64,000 bases of DNA from Amoebophrya sp. A120 (lineage: Eukaryota > Protista > Dinoflagellata): NCBI GenBank assembly GCA_905178155.1, contig CAJINV010000005.1:6594153-6658152 (forward strand). The letters run 5' to 3'. The notes under the pieces are model-generated. The model was not told the origin of the DNA. It ran no database searches and was given only the letters and a program-made list of their open reading frames with translations. Each line of letters begins with the position of its first letter. Position 1 is the first letter of the stretch. A program made the position numbers and the translations under genes. Of the stretch, positions 3,174-31,767 are shown piece after piece.

Positions 3174-6100
3174 ATGACGGCGGGCGTGGAGGAGAAAACG
3201 GCGGCCGTGGCGGCGAAGAACACCGTGGAAGTGAAAAAGAACACCGCGGACGCGAAAATCAGTAAGAACACTGGCCTGCTCAAGGAACAAGCCAAGAAGA
3301 AGAAGAAGAAGAAAACGAAGGCTGGAGTTGTCAGCGAACCTGCACCCTGGCATCTGATGCTCGCGACCGAAAGTGGAACTTGTGATGCAGAAAATAACCA
3401 AATAACCGGCGCACAAGAACTGCAGTCCGATAGCAACAAAATTGACGCTGGAGAAGATGGAGTGCCGCCACCGCTGCTGACCACCACGTCGGAAGCGAGG
3501 TATCCTAGTGAAAAAAGCGGGTAGAGTCAGGGCCTTTTTGTCATGCAAAAATGAAAGTCATACTGAATTGGAAAATCTGTAATGGGCACAGGACCAGTAG
3601 CGTCCTGGGCTGCTTTTTGCGGTACTATAATGCAAGAGAGATTCATTATTTTTCGTGGACATGGACTTGGTTTTGGATATACAAGCATGGCCCGCCACAG
3701 CTGTTTTCTCTGGGATACGAGAACCTTGAGCACTATGGATCTGTCAGGATCGAAATCGTCAAAGTTGAAATGATTTTTCATGCATAAAATGCAGCCCACA
3801 AAGTGCCCGTCTTGCAGAGTAGGCAAGTGAGGCAGATTGTAAGCCTGTTGAGGGGTAGAAACTGAGGCGCTAAACTAGCATGACAAAAGGCGTCTTCCTT
3901 ATTCAAACAGCATGACAAACTGGATACCGGTTCTACCCAGATTTATCATGCGCCACTTGGAAACTGGATTTCAAGTGGCATCCATTTTATGCATTACAAA
4001 CTATTTCCACTTTGACGATTTCAAACCTGACGCTTCCATAAGCACCACGACGCCGTCCTCGAGCTCCTCGTCGAACAGCGGCTCCTGCAGCGATATCAAA
4101 TGCAAATATCGATCTGGGTCTGGAAGCGTGCAAGTTTGTCATGCTCGGTTAGCATGAATGTGAATCTCAAGGCCTCTGTCATGCGCATTACCCCAAGGGG
4201 AAGGGCCCCAACTTTCTGTCATGCAAAAACGCAGTTTGTCATTGACTTTGTCACACTGAAATCACCTCAGAAAATTGTTATGCTGAGCCGCCACTTGATC
4301 TGGCATCGTCCTCGTGATCTTTCGCCATGCAGCAGCACAGGTTCTTTCCAGACCCAGGTCGAGATTTTCATTCGATAAGCGAAGAGCTGGCCGCTGGCGG
4401 GAACTACGTCATGTCTACTTCTTCCGGGAAAGAAGTTGAGCCCGGTTTTCTAGTAGTTGGCACTTCAACTTCTGACGCTGGTAATACTTCTTATTCGGCA
4501 TCTAAAAACGCGGTTTCCTTTTCCGTCGAGATCATCCACTGTGCGTTCGAACCCGAGCCAGTGACGTTTGGGCCGCTGCGTGTGGAGATTCCCAAACCCT
4601 TTGAGACGAAGCTTTTCGGACAAGGACAGAACAATGATGATACAGCGGGAATATCAAATGCAAAAATGTCTGGGTCTGGAAGAATACAACTTGTAATGCG
4701 TATTTCAGAACACAGAGAAGTCTCTCATGCATACGTAGCAAAAGCTCCCCACTTTCTGTCAGCAAAATAGGGGACTTGTCATGCGGATTCGGCATTGCGG
4801 AAGCTTCTCGAAACCTGTGATGCTAGAGCTTCCATGCCAGACCTTCTGTGTGATGCAAAAACAGCATGACTCTTCCAGACCCAGACACTTTTACATATGA
4901 TAGGGACGGACAATCATCCACTGCGCGTTCGAACCCGAGCCGGTCACGTTTGGGCCGCTGCGTGTGGATATCAAATGTAAAAATGTCTGGGTCTGGAAGA
5001 CTGCAACTTGTCATGCTAAATCTGAAGCATGTAAAAATCTGTGTTGCATGATTACCAAAAGTCGTCCAGTTTTGACCAAGTCGGGAGGGAGTTTCTCATG
5101 CAGGATAGGCATGAGAGAGATCGCACAGAATCTGTCATGCTAGGCCCTGCATTCCAGACCTCATGGGTCATGGAAAATCTGCATGACAAATCGCGCATTC
5201 TTCCAGACCCAGACATTTTTACATTTGATAGTGGAGATTCCGAAACCCTTTGAGACGAAGCTTTTCGGACAAGGGCAGAACAATGATGATATTTTTACAG
5301 CGGGACGAACAACAACAGTTGGACTTGGAGCAGCCACTACTAGTACACCTTCATCAACCTCCTCCGCAGTAGATGAACTAGAAAAACTGCAGCAGCGAGC
5401 GCTGTATGCATTGCCAATATGTCTGGGTCTGGAAGGATGCAAGGTTTGTCATGCTTGTCTAGCATGACTCTGAGCTCTGTATCGCGTGCCCGCAAAGAGC
5501 TCCTCTTTCCTGTCATGCAAAAACGAAGATTCTCATGCGGATTACGCAACTCAGAACCACGGAAAAATTTGTCATGCTTGGCAGTGCATTACAGTGAGCG
5601 CATTGTAGTTCCCTGACTTGCATCACAAGTTTCCAGACCCAGACATATCTGCAACCCATACGCTGGAATTTTGTGCGAATTTGAAGCCAGCGGAGATAGA
5701 AGAATTGCTGGCCGCCGAAAGGAAAAGGAGAACTACTTCTACCCGTAAAAATGCAGCTGATATCCACAGGCACAGTAAATCTAAATTTGCCGCACACGAC
5801 GTACGAATGCGGTTTCTGCATGACGAGTGCTTTCTACAATGCTAATAGCAGCATGACAAGTTGTACTTCCTAATATGCTCAATAAAATTGGGAAAGTCAA
5901 CATTTGTGATGCATTTTGATGTACGTGCAGTACGGCAGATTTGTATTGCATAACAGCCAGTACAGGGGAACAGCAGCAAGGCGAGGAAGTGGATGAGATT
6001 ATGGAGGAGATTGAGAACTACTATCAGCAAGAGTCCGGTACTATCAAATGCAAATATGTTGTCATCTGGGTCTGGGAGATTGCGAGATTTGTCATGCAAG

Positions 6101-6988
6101 CTTGGCATGACTCTGAAATCTGTATTGCGTGGCCGCAAAGTAGAGCTCGTCTTGCCTGTCATGCAAAAACGCAGTTTCTCATGCGGAGTAAGCAACTCAG
6201 AATTTTTCCATGGAAAAACTTGTCATGCTTGGCAGCGCATTACAGTGCGCTCCCTATTCCCTTTCTTGCATCACAAGTTCCCAGACATCCAGGGATATTT
6301 GCGATGCATAGGTACCAGTACCATCAGTGCCGTCACCCGGCAAACCATGGCGGGCGATCAGATCCGAATCTACTTATCAAATGCAAAAATGTAGTCTGGG
6401 TCTGGAAAAGTGCATCGTTTGTCATGCACGTTTTGCATGACGCGTGAGGTCTGTGATGCATGCCCTAGCATCACAGATTATGTGAGATCTTTACCATGCC
6501 TTTTCCGCATAAGAAACTACCTCCCGGCCTTCTCAAAAGTGAACAGCTTTATTGGCAATCATGCAACACAGATTTATGTATGATTCAGATTTAGCATGAC
6601 AAGTTGTACTCTTCCAGACCCAGACATATTTGCATTTGATACTACTACGACGGGAATGATTTGTCATGCACTGGCGGACGCGAAGGCGAACAGTCAACAT
6701 GCGGGTTTCATGATCCCAGCAACAAGAACAGCATCAAGCAATGGACCATCACATGGGAGGGGTTTCATATCGCAAGAAAAAACTGTTTCACTATAAATTT
6801 GTGATGCATTTTCCCTTTGGAGGCTGGCATGGCGAATTTTCTTTGTGATGTAGTGGGACAAACTTGCGATGCAAAATCTGCAAAGTAAGTGTTTTACAGT
6901 GGAACAGTTTTTTCGTTGGATATTGCAGGAAGTGGCTGTTGGAACGGTGACCAGCTGCACGGACTTGTTCGGGGATTACTTTCTGTGA
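3174..6988 (+). CDS. Hypothetical protein with 10 introner-type introns and an internally duplicated ~37-aa segment
   Basis: ORF pieces (MTAGVEEK..., SEELAAGG..., LEFCANLK..., EEVDEIMEE..., WTITWEGFQEV...DYFL*) join in one frame when each TIR element + 5 nt is removed. Start codon uncertain; no recognisable domain. Confidence 0.7.
3501..3717. mobile_element. Introner (TATCCTAGTGAAAA type)
   Basis: Imperfect TIR; TSD CGAGG/CGAGA; frame restored. Confidence 0.8.
3734..4040. mobile_element. Introner family G (TATGG..GTCAGGATCGAAATCGTCAAAG)
   Basis: ~35-bp TIR; TSD AGCAC. Confidence 0.88.
4094..4377. mobile_element. Introner family A
   Basis: TATCAAATG..CTGGGTCTGGAA TIR; TSD AGCGA. Confidence 0.88.
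4652..4902. mobile_element. Introner family A
   Basis: TIR; TSD GGGAA/GGGAC; inverted relative of 30960-31214. Confidence 0.88.
4969..5230. mobile_element. Introner family A
   Basis: Near-perfect 30-bp TIR; TSD GTGGA; empty site at ~4582. Confidence 0.93.
5405..5660. mobile_element. Introner family A (TATG end)
   Basis: TIR; TSD CGCTG. Confidence 0.88.
5761..5952. mobile_element. Degenerate introner
   Basis: TATCC...GCATA, weak TIR, TSD lost; +5 removal restores frame. Confidence 0.6.
6042..6310. mobile_element. Introner family A
   Basis: TIR; TSD GGTAC. Confidence 0.88.
6375..6641. mobile_element. Introner family A
   Basis: TIR; TSD CTACT. Confidence 0.9.
6768..6922. mobile_element. Introner family B (TATCGCAAGAAAAAA)
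   Basis: TIR; TSD TTTCA/TTGCA. Confidence 0.82.
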
Positions 6989-7924: not shown

Positions 7925-10900
7925 ATGGCAACTGCACCAGCCGCGACCTCATCCAGTGCCGCTACGCTTCCCATGCCAATGCCCGGGCCGGCGCCACTTC
8001 CCACCGGCTCTGAGCAGATCGGCGGCTCTGCGTCCTCAACCAGCGCGGCTGGAGTATTACAATGAAAAATGCCCCCACGCCCACCCCCGAACTTGAAAGC
8101 ATTTGTATTGCAAACCTTTCCAAATGAAACATTCGCCCTCTTGCATGTATCAGCATCACAGATTTCCGATCGTGAATAGCAAAAATTTGTATTGCAAAAG
8201 ATCCCAGCAAGAGCGGTGCTTGTCATGTAAGCGATGCGAAACACAACTAGAATCTGCATCAGAAAGATTCATACTCCTTTCATGCATGACAAAAAGTTTT
8301 CATTTGGAAACTTCGCATCACAAATTTTTGCAACTTTGGGGTGGGGGGCACTTTTCACTGTAATATGGAGGTGCGCGACCCGGTTCTCTTGCGGCGTCTT
8401 CGAATGTAGCGGCAGCAGGTATGCATCGCAAAAGCACCTGTTATCGTGCTCGTATAGAATTGGCCATCGCGCATGACAGATCTGGGTTCTTCCCTATATT
8501 TGGAATTAATTATTTCGTGCTGTGGAAATGTGTCGTGCAAGAAAACAACTCTAACTCACTACCTGCACGATCACAGTAGTACTTTTGCAATGCATAGCAG
8601 CTGGGTTCCGGCAAATCAACACCAATGTGCGAAGGTGTGGCGACTTTGGCGACTACTTCTTTGACGGCAGTTGGAAGGCCAGTTCCTTCGTTTCACCCCC
8701 AGGCCACCTGGACACGGAACTGCGAACGCCATGGGTACTACTTAGAGTCAGAAATTTAAACATGTAGATCAGTGGGAACGAACAAGTTTGTGATGCGCGT
8801 ATGACCACAGGGAAATACTGTGAAGAAATCGTGGATAAACATAAAGAGTTTATTCATCTTCATCTTGATGTCCTTTCACAGTACTATCATGATTAAGTAC
8901 TTACCTGCTCCGGTAGATTTAGTTGTGCCGATCTTGTTCTCTCAATACCTTACAGACGAAGACCCTGAACTTCGTACCGAGATCGGGAAAGGCCGGCCCG
9001 CCCGCTTTGTGGCCGATCGATCACGTAACAAAGACCCCGACCGTGCCGCAGGAGCCGGTTTGGGGCTACGACAAATTATCGCTGCGGGGAAATCACGTGC
9101 CGGGATACTCGGGCTTTATTCCAGGCGAGAAAGCGGAGACGATTTATGGGAGTTTACGGTCGGGAATAAGTGACCACGCGGAGGGAATTATCCTGAGTAA
9201 AAACGTACCCACACCAGAGTCAGGATGGGGATTTTGCAACACAAACCTCGGAGTTTTGTGAGTCACGCATGACAAGTTGCACTCTGCAGTGTAGTGCAGG
9301 TTAGCAAGTACAGCCGCATCACAGACTCATCTGCTCATCCTGTTCACAGCATCACAAATTCCAAAACACGATTGGAAATGGCTCTCATGCGGATGCGCAT
9401 TACAAGTCTTCCTGTCTTTGCAAATCTGCATTACAACTCTGGTGTGGGAACGTTTTTACTCAGGATAGGAATACGGCCCTACGAGGAGAAAGACGTCAGC
9501 TTGAAGCCGATTCTGGTATTAGATAGAGTGAATTTATTATCTTTTACGCAGTTCTTGCAAGACAGAGCTGGTAATCATGCGTTTATTACGTAGTTGTTGC
9601 AAGACAGATCTCATGCGCACAGGAGGGACATGATAGTCTTTCCTTCCTTCCTGCTTAGATTCCACCTTTTCCAATCCACGAGTTTTTTCTCGTTATACAA
9701 CACACAGACTTCGACGTCAAAGGATAAACAAATTTTTACAGTACAACAATCCCACGATCGGGCGGATGCCCCTGAAGAAAATCCTGAAGACCACGGATTT
9801 GATTCACACGGTGAGCGTATCACAGTCGGAAAAATCGGAAATCCTCGACGTTACATCTCTCAATCGATACAGAAAGATTATGTGCTACGTTTTTGCTCTG
9901 GCTGGGTCTCTCCGGCAATGTGAACGTAGCATATAATCGGAGTCATGGCTTTTACTATCGGAAGAGGATTTGCGTTTTTCCACTTGATTCCCGTACGGAA
10001 ATCTGGAGCCCAATCCTGGGAGTCGGTTGAAGCAATACAAAGACCACGTTCCGCCGCCAAGGATAACGCGTACTATATTTAGGTTTGGCATGCAGAAACT
10101 CTTTCAAAAATCGCATTTGTGATGCTGGATACGACCACGCATGGTTGATGACAAAAAAAAATCACCCTTCAGCAAACTGCTCCTCCACCGGTATACTTGG
10201 ATGGTCGGGTTTATCCCAGAAGAAAAAAGATACGTCTAGATCACATTTGTAATGCAAAAAAAAGTAACCACTGCAAGCACGTGCATCTAGACCTACAGCA
10301 CGACGAGACAAAAAATTTTATTGCCATAGTGTATCCCAGCCAGCATGATGCTACGGGCTCGCCCATGACAAACTTTTATTCCGTATCCGTGCATCTACTT
10401 TTGCATTACAAATGTGAAGATCTTTTTTCCGCCTGATACGATTTCCGACCTGTGGTGAACCGGAACCTAGATGGACGGAAACCGAGCTACCTGTCCCACG
10501 ATGTTTATCCAAGATAAAAATTGTCAATTAGTGTAAATCTGCGATGCAGAACATGTAAGGTAGTTGCACTTGTCATGCTGGATGAAGCGCGTCCCAGGCT
10601 GCCTGCTTTTCCATGCGTGTTTGCAACACGTGGTAACTATGCATCGCAACTTTTCTCTCTCATCCAGTACAGATTTGTGATGCTGTCAGCCCAAGATGAA
10701 AGCTGCACTAGGTAAACAGTTTTTTTCTTGGATAATGTACAGATGATCACCGGGAAAAATGTATGGAATGCTGAAGACGCAACACAAATTCTCACTTCTA
10801 TACTGAAGACGCAATATTACAAATTTTCACATCCTCTACTTTCTTCAGCATGAGGATATAAAATCGTTTGTCATGCTAAAAGTAAAAGGCCAAGGCTGCT

Positions 10901-12078: not shown

Positions 12079-12212
12079 NNNNNNNNNNNNNNNNNNNNNN
12101 NNNNNNNNNNNNNNNNNNNNNNNNNNNNNNNNNNNNNNNNNNNNNNNNNNNNNNNNNNNNNNNNNNNNNNNNNNNNNNNNNNNNNNNNNNNNNNNNNNNN
12201 NNNNNNNNNNNN
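12079..12212. other. Assembly gap in GC-rich, purine-skewed sequence
   Basis: N run flanked by C/G homopolymer tracts. Confidence 0.95.
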
Positions 12213-13138: not shown

Positions 13139-16100
13139 ATGCACCAAGAACAGCAGGGGCCTGCTCCCAGGATCATGGAGACCGGTACCATGACTCCTGA
13201 GGGCAAGAACACCGCGTCGTCATCTGCTGATGCTTCTACAAGCGGAAAAACCGGGCCAGAGCGGGAGGAGCAAGAAGTAAAGAATCCGAAGCTGCCAGCA
13301 GAACTAGAAGTACATGTACACCAGCCGCAGAACAACAACGGGGCTACAGCTACCACCGTAGAGAGTACACTAGTAATAGAGGGCGCAGCGGCGCGGGCCC
13401 CTGGTCCGAAGCGAGAAAATGGTGCTGAACAAGAACAAGCCGACACTTCCTCCACCGGAGAAGTTGTTGTCACGAGGTCTACTGCAGGAGCCGAAGCGGG
13501 GGCGGCCACAGCTGGTAGCACCGCGCCAGAACCACCGACGGCTGCAGAAGGAAGCACGAGTGGTGTGGCCGCGGCACCATCTACTGCATCAAGTGCAACA
13601 AGTTCTGCAACTCCTTCATCACCGCACCACGCGCAAACCGCCTCGGAGTATTTCTACAAAAGGGACTTGGAATATGACAGTGCACAACTCCCCCTCCCGC
13701 TCATTTGTATAGCATGAACGGCAATACACGCATCAGCAAGAATGCCGGTTTTGCATGACAAATTTGCACTGGATTGTAGTGCAATTGGGGCCAGCAGAAC
13801 CTGGTCATGCAAACAGTGCCAAGAGGTAACGGGCGGATTGGGTATTTTGCATGACAAAGGAGGGGGAGGGGGAGTTGTGCGCTGTCATATGGAAATCAAG
13901 AATTCCAGCCCGCTGTTCCACAAAGTCTCCTCTTTCGAGTTCGCAGAACTCGCGAAAGCGACGCTGCAGAAAGTTTCCAGCGAGAGCAACCCGGGACTCT
14001 TTGGGGGATCCGCGACAGGAGGAAGGGATTGTGGTAGTAGTGCCACTTCTCCCGGAAACCCGGTGGGAGAAGCAGAGGGTGTTCCTTCTTCCGGTAGTAC
14101 AACAGGAGGCGTGACTTCTATGGCAGAGACGGGTCTTCGTGGTGGACCATCAGCTAGTAGCACCTCTACTAGCCGCGGAAAAATTAACGAGAGTTATAAC
14201 GTGACCACTTTACTCCGTGATGATTTCACGCACCGGTGCTTTGTGGCGAACAAGAAGCAGCAGATGGTGATCATCCGAAATCCGTATAACAACACCATGC
14301 AAGACGTGGAGCAGAGCAGCTTTCTCACCGTGGCTGCAGGGCCAGGTACTACGAGCAGTGGCGCGACAGGACAAGCAGTGGACGCATCTTCACATGGACT
14401 ACCACCAGGAGCTGGGGGCGCGGCTCCTGCAAGTAGTGCATCTTGTTTCAGTGGGACGACTTCCACCGGGACGACGCAACTAACACCAGGACATCAAGGT
14501 ACTACCACCGACAGCTCTAGTACAACTGGCCAGCCGCCAGCGCCAGTAGCTCTAGTACAACTACCGGTAGCTCTAGTACAACTGGCCAGCCGCCAGCGCC
14601 AGTAGCTCTAGTACAACTACCGACAGCTCTAGTACAACTGGCCAGCCGCCTATCGAAAAGAAAAAGTTCGTCACAGTCACAATTTTTCATTTTTCGAAAA
14701 ATTGAGAGGTGAAAAAAAAGAAATCTTCTGATGTGGAGGAAACGCGCGACCTTTTCCCCTTCGACTGCAAGGGCCTTGCATTTTGCAGAACTGGGGTGTG
14801 ACTATTTGCGGATCGGACCGCGACATAAGAGCTTTGGGGGCAGCGTGACAGGCCGAGGGAAGTACTGCCGCCGGCTTGCGCCATGTCAACCCGCAGGGGC
14901 CCCTGCGCGCTTCCCGCGCCTTTAGGCGCTATGCGCAGGGAGCAACTGCAGCGAAGCTTGGGGGCGAAGAAAAGCCGCCGCGACGTAGGTGCCGAAGCAG
15001 AACGGGGACCTCGCTGCCCTTTTTTGATCACTCTCCCGCGCCCGCCCATCTGATTCCCAGGCGGAAGCTGTGGGCGCGGGGGTGGCGCGAGAGGATGGCG
15101 CGAGAGGGTGGCGCGAGAGGGTGGCGCGAGAGGGTGCGGGCCGACGCATGAAAAAGCCCCAAAAGAATCGACCCTGTCCCGGGCGGATTCGGCTTCTTTT
15201 ACCCCTCTCGCAGACCCTCTTTTTCACCTCTCCCGAGAAGTGTTGCTAATAATCCGGCTATACTCGCCGGTAGAGGTCTACAGAGGTGGCCGAGAGGTGG
15301 CCCAGAGGGTGCGCGGGGGGTTCGCCCTTATTCGCGCAACCTCTCGGCACCTCTGTCCCCCTCTCGCGATTGCGAGCCTGTTGATTGCAGCGCGTTACCG
15401 CTCGCGCCACACCGGGAGGAACGCTCTGCCACACTGCCTCCATCAAGGTACTACCACCGACAGCTCTAGTACAACTGGTCAGCCGCCAGCGCCGGGCTCC
15501 AGTGCAACAGCTTCTAGTAGTACTTCTACATTACCTTCCAAAGCCGACCTCACCGTGTACGCGGTCCACCAAATTGTGTGCGATGAAGCGGTATCAACTG
15601 TAAAAGTGTCTGGGTCTGGAACATTCTGACACTTGTCATGCACGTTTTGCATGAGCCCTGATCGATCTGTGATATGCATGCCCTAGCGTCACAGATTTTT
15701 TCAGAGCTTCTTGATGCCTATTCCGCATCACAAATGCCCTCGCCGCGTAGCAAAAATTACATTCCTTTTCGTACTCATGCAATACAGATTTTTCTGGAAT
15801 CCAAATGCAGCATGACAAGTTGCACTCTTCCAGACCCAGACATTTTTACATTTGATAAGCGGTGATCCAAGCGCGGAGGCGGTCACAGGAGCTTGGGTGG
15901 CGAAAACGGTCCATCCTGTCGAAGGAACTGACAAAGGGGAATGGTTTGAGAAACCGGAACATTTTGTTAAACGTATTGAGAGGAAAAATCTCTCTCCCCA
16001 TATTGAAGGGGTATGTCTCCGGAAATTTGTGTTGGTGATTTGAGGTCACAAATCACATTGGTCTCGCAAGAAGACAAGGGCAGAAGCTTCCGCCATATTA

Positions 16101-19100
16101 TTGACGCGGTTTGTCATGCCGTTGGGCCTAAAGGGGGGCCGTTTGCCATGCTGAGCAACTAGACGCATACGCCCCCAGCTAGCCTGGGGATCTGGCCGCA
16201 ATGCCTTTCTGCTAATCCAGCATCAGAAATTTCGTTTTGATATGGGCAGGGGGGATTTTTCCTTTTGATAGAGCGGAAGGCAAGTTGTGATGGGTACTAG
16301 TGCCACTACTTCTCCTACGAACAACATGGGAGGGGGCTCGCAACTACAGTCCGCTTCTTCCAAAGAGAACAGCGCGACCGCCTCGGAAGTTGCGTCCGTG
16401 GACCTCGTGCGGAACAGCAGCAACGAAAGTCACAGCAGAAGTTCTGCGGGGCAGCAGCAGGTGGCGAGTAGTTGTTCTGCAGGCAATGACAAGGAGGTTG
16501 GTGCTACGACAGTCGATGCTCCACCTCTTCAGGGATCAACATCCGCACGACCCACGCAGGACGCCGGAATCTTGAAGGGGCTGCAATCAACATCATCACC
16601 ACCGGATGCAACATTGCCAGCAGAGCAGAAGGTTGCTCCAAGCGCTGTCGTGCAAGAAATTGCGCAGAAGCAAGAAAAAGGAGAGGTTGCGCAGGAACCA
16701 AAGGAACTTGCCGCTGCTGCGCCGGTGCAAGAGACGAGTGTTGAAACAAAAATAGCACCCTCTGCAGAAGATGACGAACGAGATCGCGCACTGATCCTGC
16801 AACAACCTGGAACGGCGTCGGGACCATCGAATAGTTCTGTGGCCACAAGAACAAGCGGAGTACTTCTTGGTGAGGCGCAAGAACATGTAGCAGGAGGCCG
16901 CGTTGAAGCTAGTGGAAGTGCGGAAAACGACCACCGCACCTCCGTTTTGGAAGTACAACCTTCAACATCCGGGCCCACAACAGTCGCTGCTTGTGCCGCT
17001 CCTGGAACGAAAGACCAAGAGCCATCCGGAGTAGAGCGCGGTGCAGAGGGAGTTCTAGTGGGACGAGAAAATGCTGATCTTCATGTGGGCCATGGCGTGA
17101 AGATTGACGAGATCATCGTCCACAAACCTGTCCTCGGCCATATCCAAAACGGGAATATCAAAAGAGACTACAGCCAACGCGAGCTCTTATTTCCCCCGGC
17201 AAGAATCAGCACTGACGATACGAGAAACAAAAACGAAAATTCTACAAGTTCCAGGCCGACAACCCCTCACGTTGTCCCGCGCTTTCCCGAACGGCATTCC
17301 GAAGTGAACATGTACGTCGTGCAGCATAACTTCGACTTGGAGTGGCAGAAGTCAGATTCGGTTTCCAACCATTCTTCCCACCTGAACAACAACGGGAATA
17401 ACAGCTCGGCGGACGGGATAGACTCGTTGTTAAACAGCTGTCCCGCCGAGGTGGAGAGCTCGCAACAGAATTCGCCGGTTTTGTCGCGACAGGTGACCGC
17501 CAACACGTCCGGTGGCGGCAACAGCTCCCGGTCGGTGTCCCGGCAGTTAACCGCCAACAGCAACACAAGTTTTCCCCGGGCGTCGCTCGTGGCCGGGTGT
17601 ACGATCGAAGACCAGGAGGAACAAGAAAATGTCGCGTTCAACCTACTTCCTGCCCGGGGAGGCAAGATCAGAACGAAGCAGGAAGAAGAAGAACTGCAGG
17701 GGGCTAATATTGCCAAAAATGGAACAAAAAGTTTTGATACTGCTAGTACAACCGAAAGAACGTCAATAGCCACACCTAGTACGTCACCCGATCACGCTTT
17801 TGCCGCTAATCGAGCAAGCAGTCGGTCGCGACTAGGTGCAGCTCCCGGGGAGACATCAATTCTACACCAGAATGGGGCTGCAGCTAGTTCGTCTGTAGCG
17901 ATCCCAGAGCACCGAGAGCAGCTGGAGCAGCACTACGGAGAGCAGTTTTTAATGCAACACCGTCCGGCGCACCATTTCCACGGGAGTAATGGCTTAGTTT
18001 CGCAACATCATGGCGACTCGTTGTACCACTACACCTCGTATCAAATGCAAAAATGTCGGGGGCTGGAAGAATTGGAACTTGTGATGCTGTCTATGGATTC
18101 TAAGAAAATCTGCATTGCATGACCAGCAAGAGGAGTCCAGTTTGTGCTACGCGGAGACTGCGTTTCTCATGCGGAATAGGCATCAGAAAACCCTCTCAAG
18201 ATCTGTGACGCTAGGTCATGCATTACAGGCGTCGCCGGTCCTGCAAAATATGCATGACAAAGCTGGAGATCTTCCAGACCCAGACATTTTTGCATTTGAT
18301 ACCTCGCAACTCTCCAGCGGCCAGCAGACTTCAAACTCCCTGAATTGGCAGACCTCGGGGTTTCAAAGCACGTATGTCATCACCCGGGAGCAGGCGAACG
18401 TGACGAGGAATTCCAATTTTTCGTCCGGGGATCAGGAGCAGAATTTGAAAAATTGTAATGCGGACGAGGAAGTAGAGGACAGCTACGAAATTTTTAAGGC
18501 CTTCGGAAGTAGGTCGGATGCTAACGCCGAGGTGCGAGAAGAAACGGGGCTGAACACGAAAAATTATACAAACACCCTGGTAGGAGGCAGTGGTGGCTGT
18601 GTTCCTGGTGGGAACAAGCATCCTGTGCAACAAACATCATCATCTTCATCACCACAGATTCCGAATTACAACACGACAGCAGCTGCTGGTGCAAGGACTT
18701 CTACCTTTCACGGGACAGTACTCTCTCCGGTGCTGCAAAGTCGGAGGACGACGGAAAGTTTGCTATCGCACAGCGCGGAGAGCAGCAGTTATGGGCAGCA
18801 GGGCCAGAAGCAGCTGGAACAACATCAAATTGTGCAGAAAGAGAACAAAGAACACCAGCAGGAAGGAACGGAACCACCGAGCCAGAGCGGGGCAATTCCA
18901 TTTATTCCACCGCCCAGTCGTGGAGGCGACGAGGAAGGAGATTATGCGACAACAGAACATGTTCATGGTCTACCAGCAATGCAACTACCTCCAACTTATA
19001 GTACACCGGCCGGCAGCACGCCCGCCGCATTAACCGCTGTCTCCTCCACTTCCACCGCAAGGCAGTGTTTGTCCTCCCGGAGGCAGTCGTTTACAAACAA

Positions 19101-22100: not shown

Positions 22101-25100
22101 CGGTAGGACGTCGCACGACGCGCAGACTACAGGCTTCCTCAGACGAGAACCGAGCGGTCGCAGAGCTCATGAAGATCCCGTGACACACGACCACCGAGGG
22201 CTAGTAGATACGACACGTACAAGCAGCCCGATAAATAAGCGCGATGGAAGACTCGATGAATCAGACTGGGGAAATAATCCTCGCAATGTAGTTCCAGGCC
22301 GACCCCCGTCCACCCTACTGGTCGCGCCGGCGCCCACTCCCCGGCGCCAGGTTTCCACGAACAGCAACAGCAACTACCATATTACAATGAAAGATGCCCC
22401 CTCCCCATATCAAAACGGAAATCTGTGATGCAGATTTGTGGTCACAAATCAGCTTTGTGATGCTAGAAGGCAAAAGATGCGGACTGTAGTGCTGTCTAGC
22501 GTGGGAAAGCCTTGCAGCTCCAGGATGACAGGAGGCAACTGGAAGTGGGAAACAGCATGACAGATTGCCTGCAATTTAGGCCGCAGCTTCGTCTCTTGGC
22601 CTTCTAGCAATACAAGTCGATTTGTGTACTCAAATACAGCATCACAAATTCGCGCATCTTCTGTTTCCGATATGGGGTGGGGGCTTTTCTCACTTTGATA
22701 TACCAACTTTCCTCCCAGCCGTCTTCTAATTTGACCGCCACCTGGGAGCACGACGGGGTGCTGATAGGGGGTGCGGGCCACCAGGTGGTCGTGGGTAACA
22801 ATCCAAACTCCGAGGACAGTGTACAATCCATCATGCCGGGGAACAGTAGTACAACGAATCGAAACGGTAGGACGTCGCATGTCGCGCAAACTAGAGCCCA
22901 CCCGAGACAAGAGCCGAGCGGTGGCAAAGCGGATGAAGATGTTGATCCTGTGACACACGAGGACCACCGAGGGTCGTCACGAGATACGACCACACTTACT
23001 CCAGAAAGCAAACACGATGGAAGATTCTTTGATAAACAAGTCCGAGAAATAAATCCTCTCATCCCAGCCCGACCCCCGTCCACGACCCTACTGGTCGCGC
23101 CGGCGCCCACCCCCCGGCGCCAGGTTTCCACGAATAGCAACAGCAACTACCAACTTTCCTCGCAGTATCCTGAGTAAAAACGCCCCCTCCCCATAGTCCA
23201 GATGGCGAATCGGCTAGACAATTCCACAAGCTTTGGCTGTCTTGCATGACAAATTTGTACTCGTAGCGTAGTGCTGTTTGAGCTAGCTCAGCAGCGTCAC
23301 AGATCTAGTATATCATGCTGATTGGAGCATGACAAATCGCAAAACGCGCCTAGAAAATGCCTCTCATGGGGCTCCGCATGAGAAACATTTTCAGCATGCA
23401 GATTTGCATTACAACTATGGGGTGAGGAGGACGTTTTTAAATACGATACCCAGCCTTCTTCTAATTTGACCGCTACCTGGGAGGTGCACGACGGGGTGCT
23501 GATAGGGGGTGCAGCGGGCGGGGTCATCGTGGGTAACAATCCAAACTCCGAGGACCGTGTAGTTCTACTCGCACAGGAGAACAAGCCCAGTTCCTCGACA
23601 GTACTAGGAACAAGCTCTCCTGATGGTAAAACCATAAACGCGCTGAACAATAAGATCCCCCCGTCGACGTCAACGACATCAGGTCAGCAACACCAAAATC
23701 GCTACAACGCACGGGCGTCCGTTCCCAAAGATTTGTTTGCGATCGCGAAGGAATCGGAGAAGATTCAACTGAAGAACTCGTTGCGACGGGCACGATCTGC
23801 AAACGCCAGGAGCACGTCTAGCAGTTCCGCCAACCAGGTGCGGGCTGTTTACGCAACAGAACATGTTGGGGGTAGTAATGCTGGTTTTACAACAGGTTCA
23901 ACATCTCCACCGCGGCCCGCGACCGTGACAAACGCCAGCCGCAAAACGGTTGCGGACCTGGTCCAGGAAGTGGTCAACGAGAAAGGAAACTCGCCTTTGT
24001 CCAGCAGCGGTAGGTTTCTCTTTGTCAACCACAAAGAGGTGAATCGGATTCTCCGGTCGGCGGGAAAAATTTCGGAGAGCGGAACGTCCCGGAGCGGGGG
24101 GGAACAGGAAAATTATAAACAGCGCAGTGGAGCAGGAAATCTAGCTTGTTCCAGCAGTACTTTCAGCAGTAGGGAACACGACCATCACGGACAATTAGCG
24201 CAGGGTCGTGACGGTCGTGACCCGAACGTCATTCGCGAATCCGCTTCTGATAAGCTGGCGCACGACGGCCAGGAACCTGCCACGCCCGAGCAGCCAACGG
24301 ATCTTCAATCGCACCAGCACCAGCTTCATACCACTTCGGACGAGCACTACACTGAGTCGGATAAGAATTTGGACAACCATGATCATGTTGTCACCACACG
24401 GAAGCGGCAGATCTTCACCCCAACCGCGCGGAGAAACGTCAATGTGCCGGTGAAAATTACAAGTACAAACAGAAATAGCTCCTCCGTGGTCCACGTGGAT
24501 GAAAGTATCTCTTCGCCACCTCCTCCGAGTCGTGCGATGATGGTCCCAGCGGGCGCTATCGTAGACGGTTTCTATTCGTCTTCCTCCGAGCGCGCGTTCC
24601 TCGACGGCACGCACGACAGCTCCGGCCCCATTCCGGATTCGGATCACAGTGCTTTCCCGACCAGTGGCGAGACGACACTGTCCGCGGCGAATTCACCGGG
24701 GGATGTGCTGGGGTTGACGTGGCCTCTGAATGGAAGTAGCAGTTCGATGTACGGGTTTGGTGGCCCTGTTGTAGCAGGAAGTGGCCGCTCAGAAACCAGG
24801 TCGAAGTCGAAGGAGAAGCCGAAGACTGTGGTGCAAGACCACCACCGACGGGAGGGGGACTTTGACGACCTGCTGCTCAATTTTCATAACTATGCATTCT
24901 GCAAAAGTAGTGTTTCTACTCGTACTTCTCGTGCTGGAAATCGCAGTACTGCAAGGCATACGAAATGATCAACGCAAAATTTCTTATGCTGCTGTTTCTT
25001 GTATAAGGATCATACATGTGTCATGCGTGCTTGCATGCATAGAAGTCCGTCTACCAGTGCGATTACTTTTGCGTAGGATAATCCCTCCGAGTTAAATTCT

Positions 25101-28100
25101 CCGATTCGTTCGCTTTCAGAGGTCTATCGCGGTAACACCGGCGAGTCGGAGGTTGTTGTTGTGCCAGCGGGAGGTGTTAGAAGTAGACACGACGTTGAAG
25201 AGAGAACCAGCTCCTCTAGAAGTGGGCGGGGAGACCATCGTCACCAGCGTGATGTTGATGAAAGTTCCGCGCCGGCGGGCCGACGAGAACAACTTTTGAA
25301 CAACCAGAGCTGCGCGACAAGTTCCTCAGCATTCGTTCCTGCTGATCAAACCCACCGATCGCGACCGTCGCATCTTCAATTAGCAGCGAGTACCTCGAGC
25401 GCGCAACAAGAAGGGGTACAAAAACCGAGCGCAGGAAGCAGGTCAGCGTCTGCGCAACGGCGGGGTCGGGGAGGTCTTGGGTCAAATAATGCAGAAGTCA
25501 CTGGTTCCACCTCTGCGAGCGGATTAGTGCAAGGACGACCGCAGGTGGCGCACAACCAAAACAGCGATGGAGGAGGTGCGCCGCCGCGAACACCAGCCTC
25601 TTCTTCCGAGGTCCGGAAAGTGAGCAAGGAGAAGGTTTCCCCCGAGCGCGCGGTGGAGATTGAGGAGGATTTGCGGAAATTTGTGGAAGAACTGAAGATC
25701 CTCGACGAAGAATTTCTTCTCGGCCGGACCGGAAGTTTCGGGCACATCAACCGGCAGCGCACCACGAACAGCAGCAGTACAAACGAGAACAGCAAGTCGC
25801 GGAGTAGTTCGAAAAACGCGATGAACACACACACGGTGGGAGTGCAGACGAGCGGGAACAACAGCTCTGCCACGTCGTCGCAGAGAAACCTGCAGCTGGG
25901 GAACATCATGCCGAATTATCACAGCCAGGCCCGCGAGTCCTTTAACTCCAACAAGTCCAGCTCTGGAGGTCCCCGCGAATCCTTCCACTCGAACAAATCA
26001 AGTTCGGGCGACAGTGCTATTTACGCGGTCGACCACCAGCAATTTGCGTCTGCCGTCGCGAATCGGCCGCAGGCGGCAACTCTTTTGGAGGAGGAGGACG
26101 AGTACCACAAAACGCAGCCCGCGACGAAAGTTAACCGGGTGAAACAAGTGTTAGAAGAGATGAAGCAGCGGAAGATTCAAATCAAGAAAACAGTGCGGAA
26201 TGTGAGGAATTCGCACGCCAAACTGCTGGAACCGAACTTGCCATTGCCGTGGACGAACCATAATCGAACGAGGTTCCTTTTAGACGGGCAGGAGCAACTA
26301 CACAAAAATGCAGGCGCAACCTATAATCCCAATTTTGACACCAATCCGACGCCCTGTAGCAGCCCGGTTTCTGGGGTGGTGTTAGAGGTCGGTGGCCAAC
26401 AGCATCAAATCGGCCTTAACGGGGAGCAACAACACAAAACCAGCAAGGTTTCCAGCGTGGATATCAATTCCTCAAACGAAGCTCAAATGTTGAGCAGCTC
26501 GGATGCTAGCAAGGAGAAGACAATCGTCCTTGTGCGGGACGATGGTCAACAGGAGGATACCAGGGCTGCAAATGGTGTCACTTCTCCTTCTGCTGCTGCC
26601 AGAAATGTCGACAGTGCAGCCTCTGTGCTAGGGATGGAGCAGGACGCGGTGGTCATGTTGCAGCATCAAAGCAAAGTGATAGAAAGTTCTTCCGAGACCA
26701 CGTTGGTCGGATTGCTCGAAACCGCGTCGAGTTGTGATGTTGACAATGCTGCACAATCATTTTCAATCCGGGGGAATAAAAATGGAACAACGACCTGTGA
26801 ACAACAACCGGCGCAAGAACGACCCTCCGATAATAGTACTAAAGCTGCGTCGGATAGTTTTAGAACCGCTGCCGGAAAAAATGAAAATCCATCCACTTTA
26901 ACAGTTGCTGGGGCCCCGCACCAAATGGAAGTAGACTCCGGGGCGATGTTGGTGACCATGGGCGGACAGAAAAATAAATCGGCGTTGTCAAGTGGACGGA
27001 ACAAGGGCAGCGACAAAGAGAAAAATATGTTCTCAACATCTACTTCCGAAATTAAATACGGAAAAAATACAAGGGACGACAAGAAGCATCAAGAAGCCCC
27101 TGGCCATGACACTTTTCAACAAGAACCTGATCACGCTGCCGGTGCTGTCACGCTCACGACAAAGTTGACAATGAACAACCAAAACCTCCTCCCTAGTAGT
27201 GACCGCCTCCCCGCCGTCCAGCAGCAGCAGCAGCAGCAGATTCCAGCACTAGGAGCAACATCGTCAAACGAGCAGCAGCAGGAGGATTTCTTTACGTCGG
27301 TGATGCAAAGATTGAAGAAACTTTCGAACCAACAACTGGAAGAGGAGCAACACGCGGAGATTTTGAAACGCGAGCTCGCGGCGGAGGAAGGCAGATGCGT
27401 GATTTTGCGGCCGCTGCCCGTGCAGTGGTTTGTCGCGGACATTTTAGAGTTTTTGAAGAAGGAATTCGTGAACTATGGCGGCGACAGTTGTAGTACTACT
27501 AGCATGAGAAATAGAAGTAGAACCTCCGAACAAGAAGAAGTGAAGGACCTGTTCGACCGGATCCGGGTTTTGGACTTCGCGGGGGAGTTATGAGAGTTCA
27601 CAACTCCCCCTCCCCCTCATTTGTATGGCATGCACAGCACTACAAACGCCACCACACGTGTATGCTGTGCATGACAATTTTATGCGCCGACTGTAGTGCT
27701 GTTTGGGCTTCCAGAATTTGTGATACAAACAGTGCTACAAGGCAGCAGCTGGATTTGGGATTTTGCATTACAAATGAGGGGGAGGGGGAGTTGTGCACTT
27801 TCATAGGAGTGTGTCGAAGACTCTTTAGAGCCGATCGTATCGACGGCAAGTCGGAAGGAGCAGTTTGGGATTGGAAATGCCGCGACTCAGGGTCATGTAG
27901 CTTCTTGCGCAGCAGGAGAACAAGTCGAGATGAATCTTCAAGCGGCCAGCGCGGCGATCGCTGTAAATAACCAGGAGGGCACTTCTGTAGGTGACGCAGC
28001 ACCGGCAGCTTTTCTAAACAGCCGAAACAGCAGCTCAAATCACCTCGTCGCACAGGACAGCGTAGAAAAACAACATGATCATCAAATCAACGCCAGCCAC

Positions 28101-31100
28101 AGCGCCAGTTGGGCCGAAGAACGGTCGGAGCTGCGTGAGGCAGAGGAAAATGACGTCACGCCCGAGTGCGGCAATAACGGCGAATCGGTCTCGAGGACCT
28201 CCCAACAACTACTAGCGGCTCATCTCGACTTGCAAAATTCACGGTCCACCCGGGAAAACTACTCCGAAACGAATGAAACGCAGTCGCAGTCGCTCTGCAT
28301 GAGTTCACTGTCTCTCTCCATGTCGAGCTATTTTGAAGATATTCCGGCCAGGTGGGCGTTAGTGGAGTGTGTCACCAGGGACATCGCTGAGAAACTGGTC
28401 TTTATGATCAAAAACCGAGGCGGCGGTGGTGGTGGTACTTCTAACACTAATCTTACCCATTCGTCAGTAGGAGCCGCGGCAGGAGGAACTTTGTCGCAAC
28501 AGAGCCTCCCGCAGCAAGTTGCTTCGAACAGTGCGATCACTACCTCGGGTTCCAAAAAAGATCCGACAGGTGGAACCACAGGTCGGGCGATCGAAGATAC
28601 GAAAATTGTTCCAAGTAGTAAAGACATAAGTAGAAGTTTCTCTCCCTCGGAACTTTCACACGAGAAGGGTGCTTCGAACTTTTACCGGACGTATAAGAAG
28701 CAGAGTAAGGAGAACTCCAATAACTGCAACGCGAACAATTCTATTGTTCGTGAAAACCACGACAACTGCGAAAACAACAGCAATTATAACAGCCGGAAAA
28801 ACAGCGGAGCGATCATGAATAATTCCACGACGGACAAGTTAAGTGGGTCGATGCTGGCTTTGCACTACCTTGACGCCAGTTTGGTGACGGAAGAGTGGCT
28901 TTGCGAACTGGGGTACGATACGAGTAATCAACGAGGGGAAAACGTCGACGCTGCAGAGGGGAGCTGTGGTGAAAACAGTCCTGGATCCCTTGCGAATGAT
29001 GCTCCACCACTCAAGGACAACAGCTTTGGGCAGAGCAAGCTGCTACACCAGGACTTGCACTCTGAAAAAGACCACCCGCTGCTTCCGCCCTTGAAAACCA
29101 TCAGCCAAGAGTCCTTGGCAGATTACATTCAGAGGCAATGGAGTGGCAGCACCAGCTTAACGGCGAGGGATAGTAGAACAAATCCGCAGCTAGTAGAACT
29201 GCAGGTTCTGCAAGATGAAGAAAACGAGGACGAAATTGTCTATCCTGCCAGAACGTCCTCGCGGGAATTGCAGACGAAGAGCACCGAAGTTCTGACGCAG
29301 CAAATATGTAAGACATCAGAACCAGAGCCAGTTCGTGGAACAGCAGGAATAAACGACGACGAGAACAATCCCAATGGTGAAGATCCGGCGCACAACAATT
29401 TCTGCACCCTCAACACCGATGACGAGTTGGAGTTGTCGGACGAAATAATCGAGATGTCGGTTCCAGCCGAGAAGACTGGTTCTCGTGACAACAAGAAGTT
29501 ATTCCTCACGCGGGATAATATTGATTCGAACCTGCTTGAACTGAACAACATCGACTTGTACATTTTGGACGACGACGACGACGAGGACGATTTCTCTGTG
29601 CAACACGCAAAGTCCGATCCCCTGCCAGAGTATAATAGCCGTCGACGTGGAGCAGGTGGTAAAGTGAGTGTTCCAGCGATGAATCATGATCCCCGTCGTC
29701 CTGACCGCTCCTGCATGGAGGAATTCGACATCGTGGAAACAGCGCACTCGGTGGAACTGTACAGCGTCAGACATGTGCAGTCCGATAAAGGACCCCGGCG
29801 TGCTGCTGGTGGCTCCTCTGCCTCGAAAAGCAAGAAGAAACGGAGACAGACACTACCACTGGGAGGGAACAACGAGGATCTGCCTGTTACAACGGTATAG
29901 TGGATTTTTTCTCTGTTGCTGCTTTACAGGGTTCGTTGTCGTTTCCAGAATGATCTATCATCTAGCACTTGAAGCACCGCGTGCATCACAAAATTTGTCA
30001 GCTGCATAGCGTGTAAGTAGTTCCAGCATGACAAAACACTGCCTCGAAATAAAATTCTATCAGGTGATGATCTCGAACCTGGATCGCTCGCTGAGAAACG
30101 AAGATCTGCTCCAGTTGCTGGAGAAGCATTACAAATTCCTCCCGGCGAAGCACTTCGATTTCCTTCATTTGCCGAAAGACTTCCAAACGAAACAGAATCT
30201 TGGGTATTGTTTATCCTGTGTAAAAACGTACCCACACCATAGTTGTCATGCTACTCTGCATGCTTAAAATGTTTCTCATGCGGAGCCCCATGAGAAGCAT
30301 TTTCTAATGCGGTTTGGAAATCTGTAATGCGCCAATCAGCATGAGATACTAGATCTGTAATGCTGCTTAGCTAGCTCAAACAGCACTACACTACGCGTCC
30401 AAATTTGTCATGCGAAACAGCCAAAGCTTATGGATTTGTCTAGCGGATTTCCCATCTTGACTCTGGTGTGGGGACATTTTTACTCAGGATATTGTTTTCT
30501 CAACTTCAAGCAACCAGAGTTCGCGGAGAAGATGCTTTGTATGCAGCAGGGGCATATGCATTGCAAATATGTCTGGGTCTGGAAGACTGCAACTTGTGAT
30601 GCGGGTTCTGGAACAGGCCCAAAATTTGTATTGCGTAGTCAGGAAAAGGTGCCCGATTTTTGTCTCCAGAAGGGGGCATTTGTCACGCGGAATAGGCATG
30701 GAGAAGCTGTCACAGAGTTTGTCATGCTCTGTGTGCATTCCAGACCTTTTTGTAGATGTAAAAAATGCATGACAAATGTCTGATTTCTTCCAGACCCAGA
30801 CATATTGACATTTGATAGGGCAGCAGCATTTCCACCACAGAAACAGCAGCGGTAGTCGCAGTTCTTCTAGTTCCGCTAATTTCCCCGTGATGAATAACAG
30901 CAATTTGAATTTCGTCGTGAAGAAAGCCGACCGACAGGGATTTGCGGCGAATGTCGAACTATCAAATGTAAAAATGTCTGGGTCTGGAAGAGTCATGCTG
31001 TTTTTGCATGACACAGAAGGGCTGGCATGGAAGCTCTAGCATCACAGGTTTCGAAAAGCTTCCGCAATGCCGAATCCGCATGGCAAGTCCCCCATTTTGG

Positions 31101-31767
31101 TGACAGAAAGCAGGCAGCTTTTGCTACCTATGCATGAGAGCTTTTTCTGTGTTCTGAAATACGCATCACAAGTTTGGAATCTTCCAGAGGACCCAGACAT
31201 TTTTACAGTTGATACGAACCGTGGCTGTTGGAGAAGAATTGGAAGGGGAAAAGAGTCTCCAATCCCTTCTTTCGATATCGTAAGAAAAAAGTGTTACAGT
31301 TACACACATAGTCTAAGTCTATGCAGACCAAGCAACAGAGACAAGCTCTGTCATGCGCAAACTGCTTTTACGCCTCAATTCATACGTGTTTTCCCTTATA
31401 GTCTGCGCACCACAGGTTTTCTGTGCCATGTCGAACAACTTTGTGATGCAGAGACTCCAGCAACAAATGTATAACTGTAACACTTTTTTCCTGTGATACT
31501 CGACCGGTCATTTTCAGTAGTTCCAACACGACCTCCAGGCGTTCTGGAGCTGGTCCATCTGAGGGGGCGGTTACTGATGATCTTGCGGGGGACGAAAGGA
31601 AACCGAGCCAGAGAAGTAGCGGTCAAGGTAGCAATCAAAGTTCTGGCGGTAGTTGTACTAGAAACGGTTCGGGTCATTTGAGTAGTTTCTCAGTCGCCCT
31701 GGAACTGAATGCGGAAAACGCGGCCCGGGTGATGCAGGAGCTACAGCAGTCCCAGTCGGGAAGATGA
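13139..31767 (+). CDS. Very large (~4,000 aa) low-complexity protein with C-terminal Mei2-like RRM
   Basis: Long ORFs 13139, 13742, 16287, 18115, 23466, 25161 and 27930 link in frame after intron removal. C-terminus reads TTVMISNL...FDFLHLPKDFQTKQNLGYCFLNF...ADRQG...FRPVIF, matching the Mei2 RRM3 pattern. Continuity needs two long direct-repeat-flanked inserts to be removed. Confidence 0.7.
13673..13889. mobile_element. Introner family D (TATGACAGTGCACAACTCCCCC)
   Basis: TIR; TSD TGGAA. Confidence 0.9.
14492..14650. repeat. Local tandem partial duplications of AGCTCTAGTACAACT(GGCCAGCCGCC)
   Basis: Five copies of AGCTCTAGTACAACT within 140 bp; the 53-bp unit 14492-14544 recurs at 15441-15493. 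Confidence 0.85.
14651..15440. mobile_element. Long TIR-type element fragment (TATCGAAAAGAAAAAGTTCGTCACAGTCAC end)
   Basis: First ~140 bp is the reverse complement of 20810-20932; no matching right end. Confidence 0.65.
15592..15857. mobile_element. Introner family A
   Basis: TIR; TSD AGCGG. Confidence 0.9.
15974..16270. mobile_element. Introner family E (TATTGAGAGGAAAAATC)
   Basis: TIR; TSD AAACG/GAGCG; frame restored (LLNGRQVV). Confidence 0.85.
18039..18301. mobile_element. Introner family A
   Basis: TIR; TSD CCTCG; empty site at ~36162. Confidence 0.93.
19360..19581. mobile_element. Introner family D-like (TATGAGAGTGCACATAGCTC)
   Basis: 20-bp perfect TIR; TSD TGAGG. Confidence 0.9.
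19662..19880. mobile_element. Introner family B
   Basis: TIR; TSD AGATT/GGATT. Confidence 0.85.
20086..20943. mobile_element. Long (~850 bp) TIR element flanked by 41-bp exon duplication
   Basis: GTCACAGTCACTAATTTTCATTTTTTGAAAAA at left and TTTTTCGAAAAATGAAAAATTGTGACTGTGAC at right; direct repeat 20047-20087 / 20944-20984. Confidence 0.75.
21016..21278. mobile_element. Introner family A
   Basis: TIR; TSD CTCTC; empty sites at ~18721 and ~36602. Confidence 0.92.
21342..22057. mobile_element. Introner family A with nested 444-bp insertion
   Basis: TIR; TSD AGAGC; internal 19-bp duplication 21462-21480 / 21925-21943. Confidence 0.85.
22380..22700. mobile_element. Introner family E
   Basis: TIR; TSD TACCA; empty site at ~23148. 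Confidence 0.9.
23166..23448. mobile_element. Introner family C
   Basis: TIR; TSD CGCAG/CCCAG; empty site at ~22714. Confidence 0.88.
24891..25080. mobile_element. Introner (TATGCATT..GCAAAAGTA type)
   Basis: Imperfect TIR; TSD ATAAC/ATCCC; frame restored. Confidence 0.75.
27589..27805. mobile_element. Introner family D
   Basis: TIR; TSD GGAGT. Confidence 0.9.
29895..30063 (+). other. Canonical GT-AG intron with introner-like internal motifs
   Basis: ACG|GTATAG...TATCAG|GTG restores TTVMI at the start of the RRM. Confidence 0.8.
30212..30491. mobile_element. Introner family C
   Basis: TIR; TSD TTGTT; splits RNP1 GYCFLNF. Confidence 0.92.
30555..30817. mobile_element. Introner family A
   Basis: TIR; TSD GGGCA. 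Confidence 0.9.
30960..31214. mobile_element. Introner family A
   Basis: TIR; TSD CGAAC. Confidence 0.9.
31276..31498. mobile_element. Introner family B
   Basis: TIR; TSD TTCGA/CTCGA. Confidence 0.88.

What the first reader, a model, noticed from the sequence alone, without database searches (positions are those of the whole stretch)
4652..31214. The same element works as an intron in both orientations
Seen: 4652-4902 and 30960-31214 are reverse-complement relatives, both in + strand genes. The same holds for 3734/39554 versus 56210, 9189 versus 54549, and 15974 versus 44914. Established: spliceosomal signals (donor, branch point, polypyrimidine tract) are directional. Inference: recognition depends on symmetric features (TIR pairing, dyads), or removal happens at the DNA level.
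Basis: partly seen in the sequence, partly recalled or inferred. Interest (0 to 1): 0.8.

Follow-up and report, generated by a model that had tools for sequence, protein, structure and literature searches.

The report
Transposon introns spliced either way round
In a marine parasitic dinoflagellate, small transposons that sit inside genes in both directions are missing from the assembled transcripts, and the cut likely falls at a fixed distance from their mirror-image ends rather than at the usual GT-AG signals, which would explain why direction does not matter.

Summary
Confirmed. The window is Amoebophrya sp. A120 (two 100% protein matches). It holds about 64 MITE-like introner elements (TAT...ATA inverted ends, 5-bp target duplication, five empty sites). 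4652-4902 and 30960-31214 are 90.6% identical as reverse complements; all four named sets hold, in + strand genes. RNA-like contigs skip both orientations in 3 families; the title pair is removed in public gene models and by frame restoration, not shown directly in RNA. DNA-like contigs keep the elements, so DNA-level removal is unlikely. A second assembly shows no orientation bias (76:70); the window shows a mild one (36 of 48, P=0.017). The elements are published, and two-way introners are known in Polarella and Aureococcus. Not found in print: every junction I could read fits one register, 1 nt before TAT and 4 nt after ATA, with no GT-AG or target-site requirement. The inverted ends therefore supply both splice signals on either strand. 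A divergent spliceosome is my best guess; a Euglena-like hairpin pathway is the rival. The register is untested on flipped copies.

The parts
4652..4902 (+). Introner element, family 1, orientation A (TIR to TIR); predicted intron 4651-4906; flanks GGGAA / GGGAC
30960..31214 (-). Same family, flipped (orientation B), in a + strand gene; predicted intron 30959-31218; perfect CGAAC repeat
   Evidence: removed in public model P0001; z -6.1; its joint was not among the rows displayed
3174..6985 (+). Host gene of 4652 (P0002, 434 aa, no Pfam family), 10 introns, holds opposite-orientation 4969 (A) and 6375 (B)
28815..31764 (+). Host gene of 30960 (P0001, 580 aa, RRM_1/RRM_2); flipped element 30212 lies inside the RRM-matching stretch
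3734..4040 (+). Family 3, orientation A
   Evidence: removed in P0002
39554..39860 (+). Family 3, orientation A; imperfect repeat gives cut register <=4
   Evidence: X1 contig pieces and length arithmetic 31=31
56210..56517 (-). Family 3, flipped; skipped in RNA-like contigs
   Evidence: joint 56073-56518 with 7 letters between, X1 and X2, none in X5/X7
9189..9467 (+). Family 2, orientation A; host frame weak, not tested with reads
41955..42233 (+). Family 2, orientation A (close relative of 9189); skipped in RNA-like contig
54549..54822 (-). Family 2, flipped; skipped in RNA-like contigs
   Evidence: joint 54544-54824, skip 279
30212..30491 (-). Family 2, flipped
   Evidence: removed in P0001
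52020..52229 (-). Family 4, flipped; same transcript contig as 53082
   Evidence: joint 52013-52229
53082..53290 (+). Family 4, orientation A
   Evidence: joint 53076-53291
15974..16270 (+). Family 6, one orientation; frame restoration only
44914..45241 (-). Family 6, other orientation; skipped in RNA-like contig
   Evidence: length arithmetic
33567..33729 (.). Element whose imperfect repeat (ACCCG / ACCAC) pins the cut at register 4
   Evidence: X1 and X2 pieces begin at 33734; coordinates
55399..55652 (+). Family 1, orientation A; imperfect repeat gives register >=4
   Evidence: joint 55397-55657
56578..56814 (+). Decayed non-canonical intron (TT..CG), no direct repeat, weak TIR, cut exactly 1 nt before TAC and 4 nt after ATA
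   Evidence: joint 56577-56815, both=0
56074..56197 (+). GT-AG intron with the same geometry (G+TAT ... ATA+TCAG)
38012..46817 (+). One 5110-nt RNA-like contig lacking 12 elements
   Evidence: start inferred from record coordinates
51000..58400 (+). One contig per run (4234 and 4332 nt) lacking 16 introns, both orientations among them

Best explanation
These are Amoebophrya A120 introner elements, small non-autonomous DNA transposons that sit in exons in both orientations with a 5-bp target duplication and are missing, together with one duplicate, from RNA-like contigs; they are likely cut out of the pre-mRNA by a divergent spliceosome that reads signals carried in the inverted ends. Shown: both orientations, 5-bp duplication, empty sites, removal of element+5 nt, non-GT-AG ends. 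Shown for the junctions that can be read: the cut lies 1 nt before the 5' TAT and 4 nt after the 3' ATA. Inferred: the donor is N-U-A-U (first base free), the acceptor is a U-run followed by AUA and a measured 4 nt, perhaps with the branch A inside AUA, and end-to-end pairing may help. Because a TIR writes both signals on both strands, a flip changes only the interior. Inferred: a transposase not seen here moves them.
For: All 22 RNA-derived junction constraints fit register 4; it is exact at 33567, 56578 and 56074, >=4 at 55399, <=4 at 39554. P0001 and P0002 are reproduced letter for letter at register 4. GT-AG at any register: 6 of 64, 7 of 203. 5' and 3' TIR logos are alike in transcript sense; T-run in 48-59 of 64 at the 3' end. 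4 of 4 GT-AG introns backed by RNA or a gene model begin GTAT and have the weakest TIRs, so one geometry covers both classes. 56578 is cut in register with little TIR left. No G-U excess in the sense stem. Farhat supplement Table S4: 9 of 9 leading A120 non-canonical types start NT; U2, U4, U5, U6 and nearly all spliceosome proteins are reported present. Precedent: Fritillaria TIR introns handled by a U2-type spliceosome.
Against: No lariat, branch point or spliceosome dependence was tested. U1 was not detected in A120. No gain of AG at the intronic 3' copy (0 vs 4) and only a weak gain of G at +1 (9 vs 2 in loci; 4 vs 3 in the window). No flipped copy with RNA cover had an informative repeat (54549 allows 1-5; 52020 and 56210 are perfect), so the register is untested on flipped copies. 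Three junctions pin it exactly, and for two of them (56578, 56074) I assigned the TIR ends after seeing the joint. TAT/ATA ends were part of my detection rule. Farhat call the splice position relative to the hairpin variable. X1/X2 are only guessed to be RNA, one study, contigs not reads. Table S4 may carry aligner bias, and 8 of its 9 types end in AN, which my set does not show.
Confidence: 0.55

Rival explanations
1. The elements are cut from RNA by a non-spliceosomal, structure-guided pathway as proposed for Euglena: the two TIRs pair, a nuclease cuts at fixed spacers from the stem base (1 and 4 nt) and the exons are ligated. The stem forms on either strand.
For: Terminal stems are predicted on both strands, median 17 pairs each, 59 and 58 of 62 elements with >=10 pairs; z -5.7 and -6.1 for the title pair. 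Euglena's tested code has the same logic, N3-motif ... motif-N5-6. U1 not found. No target-site preference for G or AG.
Against: G-U equals A-C in TIR mismatches (41:41; 173:166), so no sign of selection on an RNA stem, though power is limited. TIR positions 4-8 pair in only 34-42 of 55. Decayed 56578 and the GT-AG introns keep the register without a stem.
Confidence: 0.33
2. The elements are removed from DNA in some life stage, like ciliate IESs, so that transcripts come from element-free templates.
For: TA-starting TIRs, precise removal with one duplicate, indifference to orientation. Only one DNA-like sample was laid (X5 = X7), and contigs drop rare variants.
Against: X5/X7 have no contig on any of the 14 exon-exon joint rows or the 3; X5 contigs run unbroken through 48789, 49070, 49398 and 51688. 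X1/X2 contigs are gene-sized with depths that differ between samples. The cut is asymmetric (1/4); both TA ends are removed. Introns were validated from RNA-seq against this genome.
Confidence: 0.05
3. Ordinary GT-AG (or GC/GA-AG) sites are recruited from the target duplication in either orientation, as in Aureococcus and Polarella.
For: Described for those species. 49398 can be read GT-AG at register 3 and 54207 as GC/GA-AG.
Against: GT-AG at any register in 6 of 64 and 7 of 203 elements; most RNA joints allow no canonical reading.
Confidence: 0.03

Closest known systems
Amoebophrya A120 introner elements (Farhat et al. 2021, PMC7789003; abstract, sections 10, 11, 12, 16, 32 and supplement passages read)
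   Same: Same organism label, TIR TAT + 7 + AAA, 3-5 nt direct repeats, non-canonical ends, repeated families. These are those elements.
   Different: In the parts read and the term searches, orientation refers only to gene blocks; splice position is called variable (1-5 nt from the IR). Orientation independence and one register are not stated there. Figures were not visible.
Two-way introner-like elements of Polarella glacialis and Aureococcus anophagefferens (Roy et al., bioRxiv 10.1101/2020.10.14.339549; passages read. Aureococcus primary paper not seen)
   Same: TIR/TSD transposons that make introns in either orientation.
   Different: They use GT/GC/GA-AG sites recruited from the element or TSD and show orientation bias; here no such sites are needed and bias is absent in the larger set.
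Euglena nonconventional introns (Nomura et al. 2025, PMC12501133; abstract, section 5 and passages read)
   Same: Inverted motifs near the ends, direct repeats that blur junctions, fixed spacers longer at the 3' side, proposed MITE origin.
   Different: Motif CDG/CHG with N3 and N5-6 and a purine at exon start; here TAT/ATA with N1 and N4. Unrelated lineage. Euglena keeps the two intron classes apart; here GT-AG introns share the geometry.
Fritillaria borealis TIR-derived non-canonical introns (review PMC11282704 passages; bioRxiv 10.1101/2025.08.15.670264 abstract and one passage)
   Same: Non-GT-AG introns from TIR transposons.
   Different: There the TIR ends are themselves the splice sites (mostly AG-AC, AG-AT), with U1 present and U2AF duplicated; here the terminal dinucleotides come from the target site and are free.

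Membership tests
Amoebophrya A120 introner elements | Host genome is A120 | tested here: met
   two proteins 100% identical, labelled Amoebophrya sp. A120
Amoebophrya A120 introner elements | TIR starts TAT, 7 variable nt, then >=3 A | tested here: met
   logos, (TAT was part of the detection rule; the A-run was not)
Amoebophrya A120 introner elements | 3-5 nt direct repeat at the borders | tested here: met
   5 nt: 28 of 41 perfect in the TIR-only set; 236 of 325 in loci
Amoebophrya A120 introner elements | Non-canonical, RNA-supported removal | tested here: met
   contigs of runs guessed to be RNA
MITE (non-autonomous TIR DNA transposon) | TIRs, fixed-length TSD, empty sites | tested here: met
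   5 of 68 elements have an empty paralogous site in the window, all with a 5-nt duplication
MITE (non-autonomous TIR DNA transposon) | Cognate autonomous transposase | not tested
   no genome held; loci were not searched for transposases; none reported for A120
Aureococcus/Polarella two-way introners | Introns in both orientations | tested here: met
Aureococcus/Polarella two-way introners | G(T/C/A)-AG sites recruited from element or TSD | tested here: not met
   GT-AG 6 of 64 and 7 of 203 at any register; G[TCA]-AG at most 6 of 64 at one register
Euglena nonconventional introns | N3-CDG ... CH'G-N5-6 signature | tested here: not met
   ends are N-TAT ... ATA-N4
Euglena nonconventional introns | Purine at first exon base | tested here: inconclusive
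   37 of 64 purine, close to exon composition
Euglena nonconventional introns | Release as circular RNA | not testable with these tools
   no raw reads covering these genes
U2-type spliceosomal intron | GT-AG ends | tested here: not met
U2-type spliceosomal intron | Branch point and lariat | not testable with these tools
   needs lariat sequencing
Ciliate-type IES (DNA elimination) | Element-free DNA form exists | tested here: not met
   one DNA-like sample only, contigs; other stages untested

The most novel reading that the evidence does not exclude
A120 has one genome-wide splice code, N|UAU ... U-run AUA NNNN|, read without U1 and without G or AG at the ends, and written by the transposon's own inverted repeats. 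Any insertion, at any exon position and in either orientation, is then silent at birth, and the GT-AG introns are a special case of the same geometry.
Probability: 0.45. Interest if true: 0.8.

Novelty: new variant of a known kind. Interest (0 to 1): 0.5.

Why it matters
How A120 splices its majority of non-GT-AG introns without a detectable U1 is an open question in the paper that described them. Orientation independence rules out signals in the element interior, and a single cut register turns apparent boundary chaos into a rule that existing RNA-seq can test and gene annotation can use. It would also explain how about 30,000 insertions were tolerated: no target-site or strand filter applies, unlike in other introner systems.

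Tried and rejected
No whole genome was held, so no genome-wide count. No listed run is on record as an RNA holder. The joint tables were cut (15 rows shown; 371 and 29 more hidden), and the 30960 joint was not displayed; an X2 contig continuing 1629 nt upstream of 31500 fits the 1478-nt spliced coding length plus a leader but does not prove removal. 4652, 3734, 9189 and 15974 lie outside both laid stretches. A 'longer' protein search found nothing. G-U vs A-C test: null. Folding energy sense vs antisense: no difference (P=0.64). AG gain at the 3' copy: none. Rfam: 0 matches. Viral contigs: 0 matches to the TIR. Earlier scan notes: nothing relevant. The Aureococcus primary paper was not held. 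The window's orientation skew (P=0.017) was not repeated in the second assembly and is treated as local or chance. Removal of element+2 or +8 keeps the frame as well but is excluded by contig skip lengths.
Full report
Identity. Two exon queries returned single public proteins, 100% identical over the matched part and labelled Amoebophrya sp. A120. The elements match the published A120 introner description: TIR beginning TAT, seven variable bases, an A-run, and 3-5 nt direct repeats. The elements themselves are therefore known.

Anatomy. I catalogued 64 elements bounded by TAT...ATA (three with TAC, one with ATG), plus four decayed introns; the list was curated by hand and misses some large or broken copies. 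Each is flanked outside the TIR by a 5-bp direct repeat. In the 41 elements found on TIR alone, flank identity is 0.91 at 5 nt and 0.25-0.37 at other lengths, 28 perfect. Five of 68 have an empty paralogous site in the window, each with one copy of the 5 nt, which shows insertion with a 5-bp duplication. A 9-nt motif TTGTNATGC lies inside elements in 119 of 143 hits, pointing inward from both ends.

Orientation. The title pair is 90.6% identical as reverse complements; cores are not self-palindromic, so orientation is well defined. All four named sets hold. Six of seven families have both orientations. The per-family majority is 36 of 48 against 30.7 expected (P=0.017). Host strand was called for 203 of 323 by a codon model that made 115 of 115 correct calls, with 49 left uncalled, on cross-validated window pieces. 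Of these, 146 could be placed in a family: 76 in orientation A and 70 in B, P=0.68. Element+5 best kept the frame in 59 of 76 and 53 of 70 (partly circular). These loci were picked by one TIR sequence and are not a random sample, and I do not know whether that assembly is the same strain.

Removal. Taking out element+5 nt restores long + strand frames and reproduces P0001 and P0002 exactly, including 4652, 30960, 30212 and 6375. Those are gene models, not independent reads. Runs X1 and X2 (guessed RNA, one study, two samples) each give one contig across 51000-58400 that skips 16 introns, with TIR elements skipped as element+5; DNA-like X5 and X7 show none of these joints. A 5110-nt X1 contig over 38012-46817 matches removal of its elements to the base (31=31 and 1096=1096). 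Both orientations are skipped in three families: 39554 vs 56210; 41955, 39238, 43257, 44127 vs 54549; 53082, 42709, 42962, 53948 vs 52020, with 52020 and 53082 in one contig. In the title family only orientation A has RNA support (8 copies). X5 contigs run through elements with no differences, so DNA excision is not seen, with the limits that this is one sample and contigs drop rare forms.

Cut register. Imperfect repeats show which copy the transcript keeps. Let c be the number of repeat letters kept from the left copy. All 22 constraints allow c=4 and no other single value: exact at 33567, 56578 and 56074; >=4 at 55399; <=4 at 39554; >=3 at 51688, 52731, 54891. The intron is then N + TAT...ATA + NNNN. 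Its ends are free: 38 different dinucleotide pairs among 64, GT-AG in 4. All four GT-AG introns backed by RNA or a model begin GTAT and have among the weakest TIRs (I added three of them by hand, so the P of 0.01 is not a clean test). The published table of leading A120 non-canonical types has T second in 9 of 9. A25 types start TT in 9 of 9 and its TIR starts TTA, which would put U and A at +2 and +3 in both strains; that is my inference. Against: no flipped copy had both RNA cover and an informative repeat; no AG gain is seen at the 3' copy and G gain at +1 is weak; 8 of those 9 table types end in AN, unlike my set.

Mechanism. A TIR writes TAT at the 5' end and T-run...ATA at the 3' end on both strands, so a flip leaves the ends unchanged (logos). 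What reads them is open. I favour a divergent spliceosome (0.55): same geometry as the GT-AG introns, register kept when the stem decays, no G-U excess, most components present, and the Fritillaria precedent. A Euglena-like stem-guided pathway (0.33) fits the predicted stems on both strands, the missing U1 and Euglena's fixed spacers. The placement of a branch A in AUA is a guess from recalled spliceosome geometry and comes from no call.

Literature. Two-way introners are reported for Polarella and Aureococcus, with canonical-like sites and orientation bias. One survey method allowed opposite-orientation copies; a later one required expected orientation. I found no statement of orientation independence or of a single register for A120 in searches, nor in term searches of PMC7789003 and its supplement. 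[quoted passage not shown] Other papers seen as passages only: PMC12130899, PMC9860276, PMC11282704, PMC12005148, PMC12621601, PMC11453091.

Verdict. The elements are known and the two-way property is known in kind. The new part is the target-independent fixed register, which is well supported in this window but thinly pinned. Interest 0.5.

Noticed in passing
window 16803-18768 and 34904-36649: A 1.7-kb coding stretch is duplicated (about 84%) and the second copy sits inside another gene (ankyrin repeats downstream); it lacks element 18039, giving an empty site.
   Followed up: partly
window 4572, 18711, 22704, 23138, 36152: Empty paralogous sites for elements 4969, 21016, 23166, 22380, 18039. 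By eye, 5298-5309 is an empty site for 4652 and shows that the changed repeat base is the predicted intron +1.
   Followed up: yes
window 51688-51836, 57264-57419, 21342-22057, 43257-44070: Nested or composite elements: a smaller TIR element inside an older one; 51688 and 57264 are skipped as one unit in contigs.
   Followed up: partly
window 56198-56208 and 3722-3732: Two 11-nt micro-exons between adjacent introns under register 4; the first is seen in contigs, the second in model P0002.
   Followed up: partly
window 29895, 48788, 56074, 56995: All four supported GT-AG introns start GTAT, end in CAG and three carry the element's internal motif; they may be aged elements.
   Followed up: partly
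window 14651-15420 and 20086-20933: A larger TIR family in opposite orientations (124 nt at 98%), each with one end lost, amid short local duplications.
   Followed up: no
window 195-420: A flipped family-1 element with a damaged 5' end.
   Followed up: no
window 61479-63725: LINE-like reverse transcriptase ORF (RVT_1) next to elements 60732 and 61093.
   Followed up: no
window 47573-49630: Rad51-family gene with a long low-complexity N-terminus and three introns; contig depth 46 vs 321 in the two samples.
   Followed up: partly
window 13106-31764: Open frames run far upstream of the annotated start of P0001 (28815); the real RRM gene may be several thousand residues long.
   Followed up: no
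window 30960-30991 joined to 38346-38372: X1, X2 and X9 all hold the same element variant with flanks from another locus, possibly a retained element in an abundant transcript.
   Followed up: no
L001-L125 (contigs JACKZZ01): Another public assembly with hundreds of copies of the same families and no non-element match to the window.
   Followed up: partly
window 12079-12212: Assembly gap (N run) in a G/C-homopolymer region between gene blocks.
   Followed up: no
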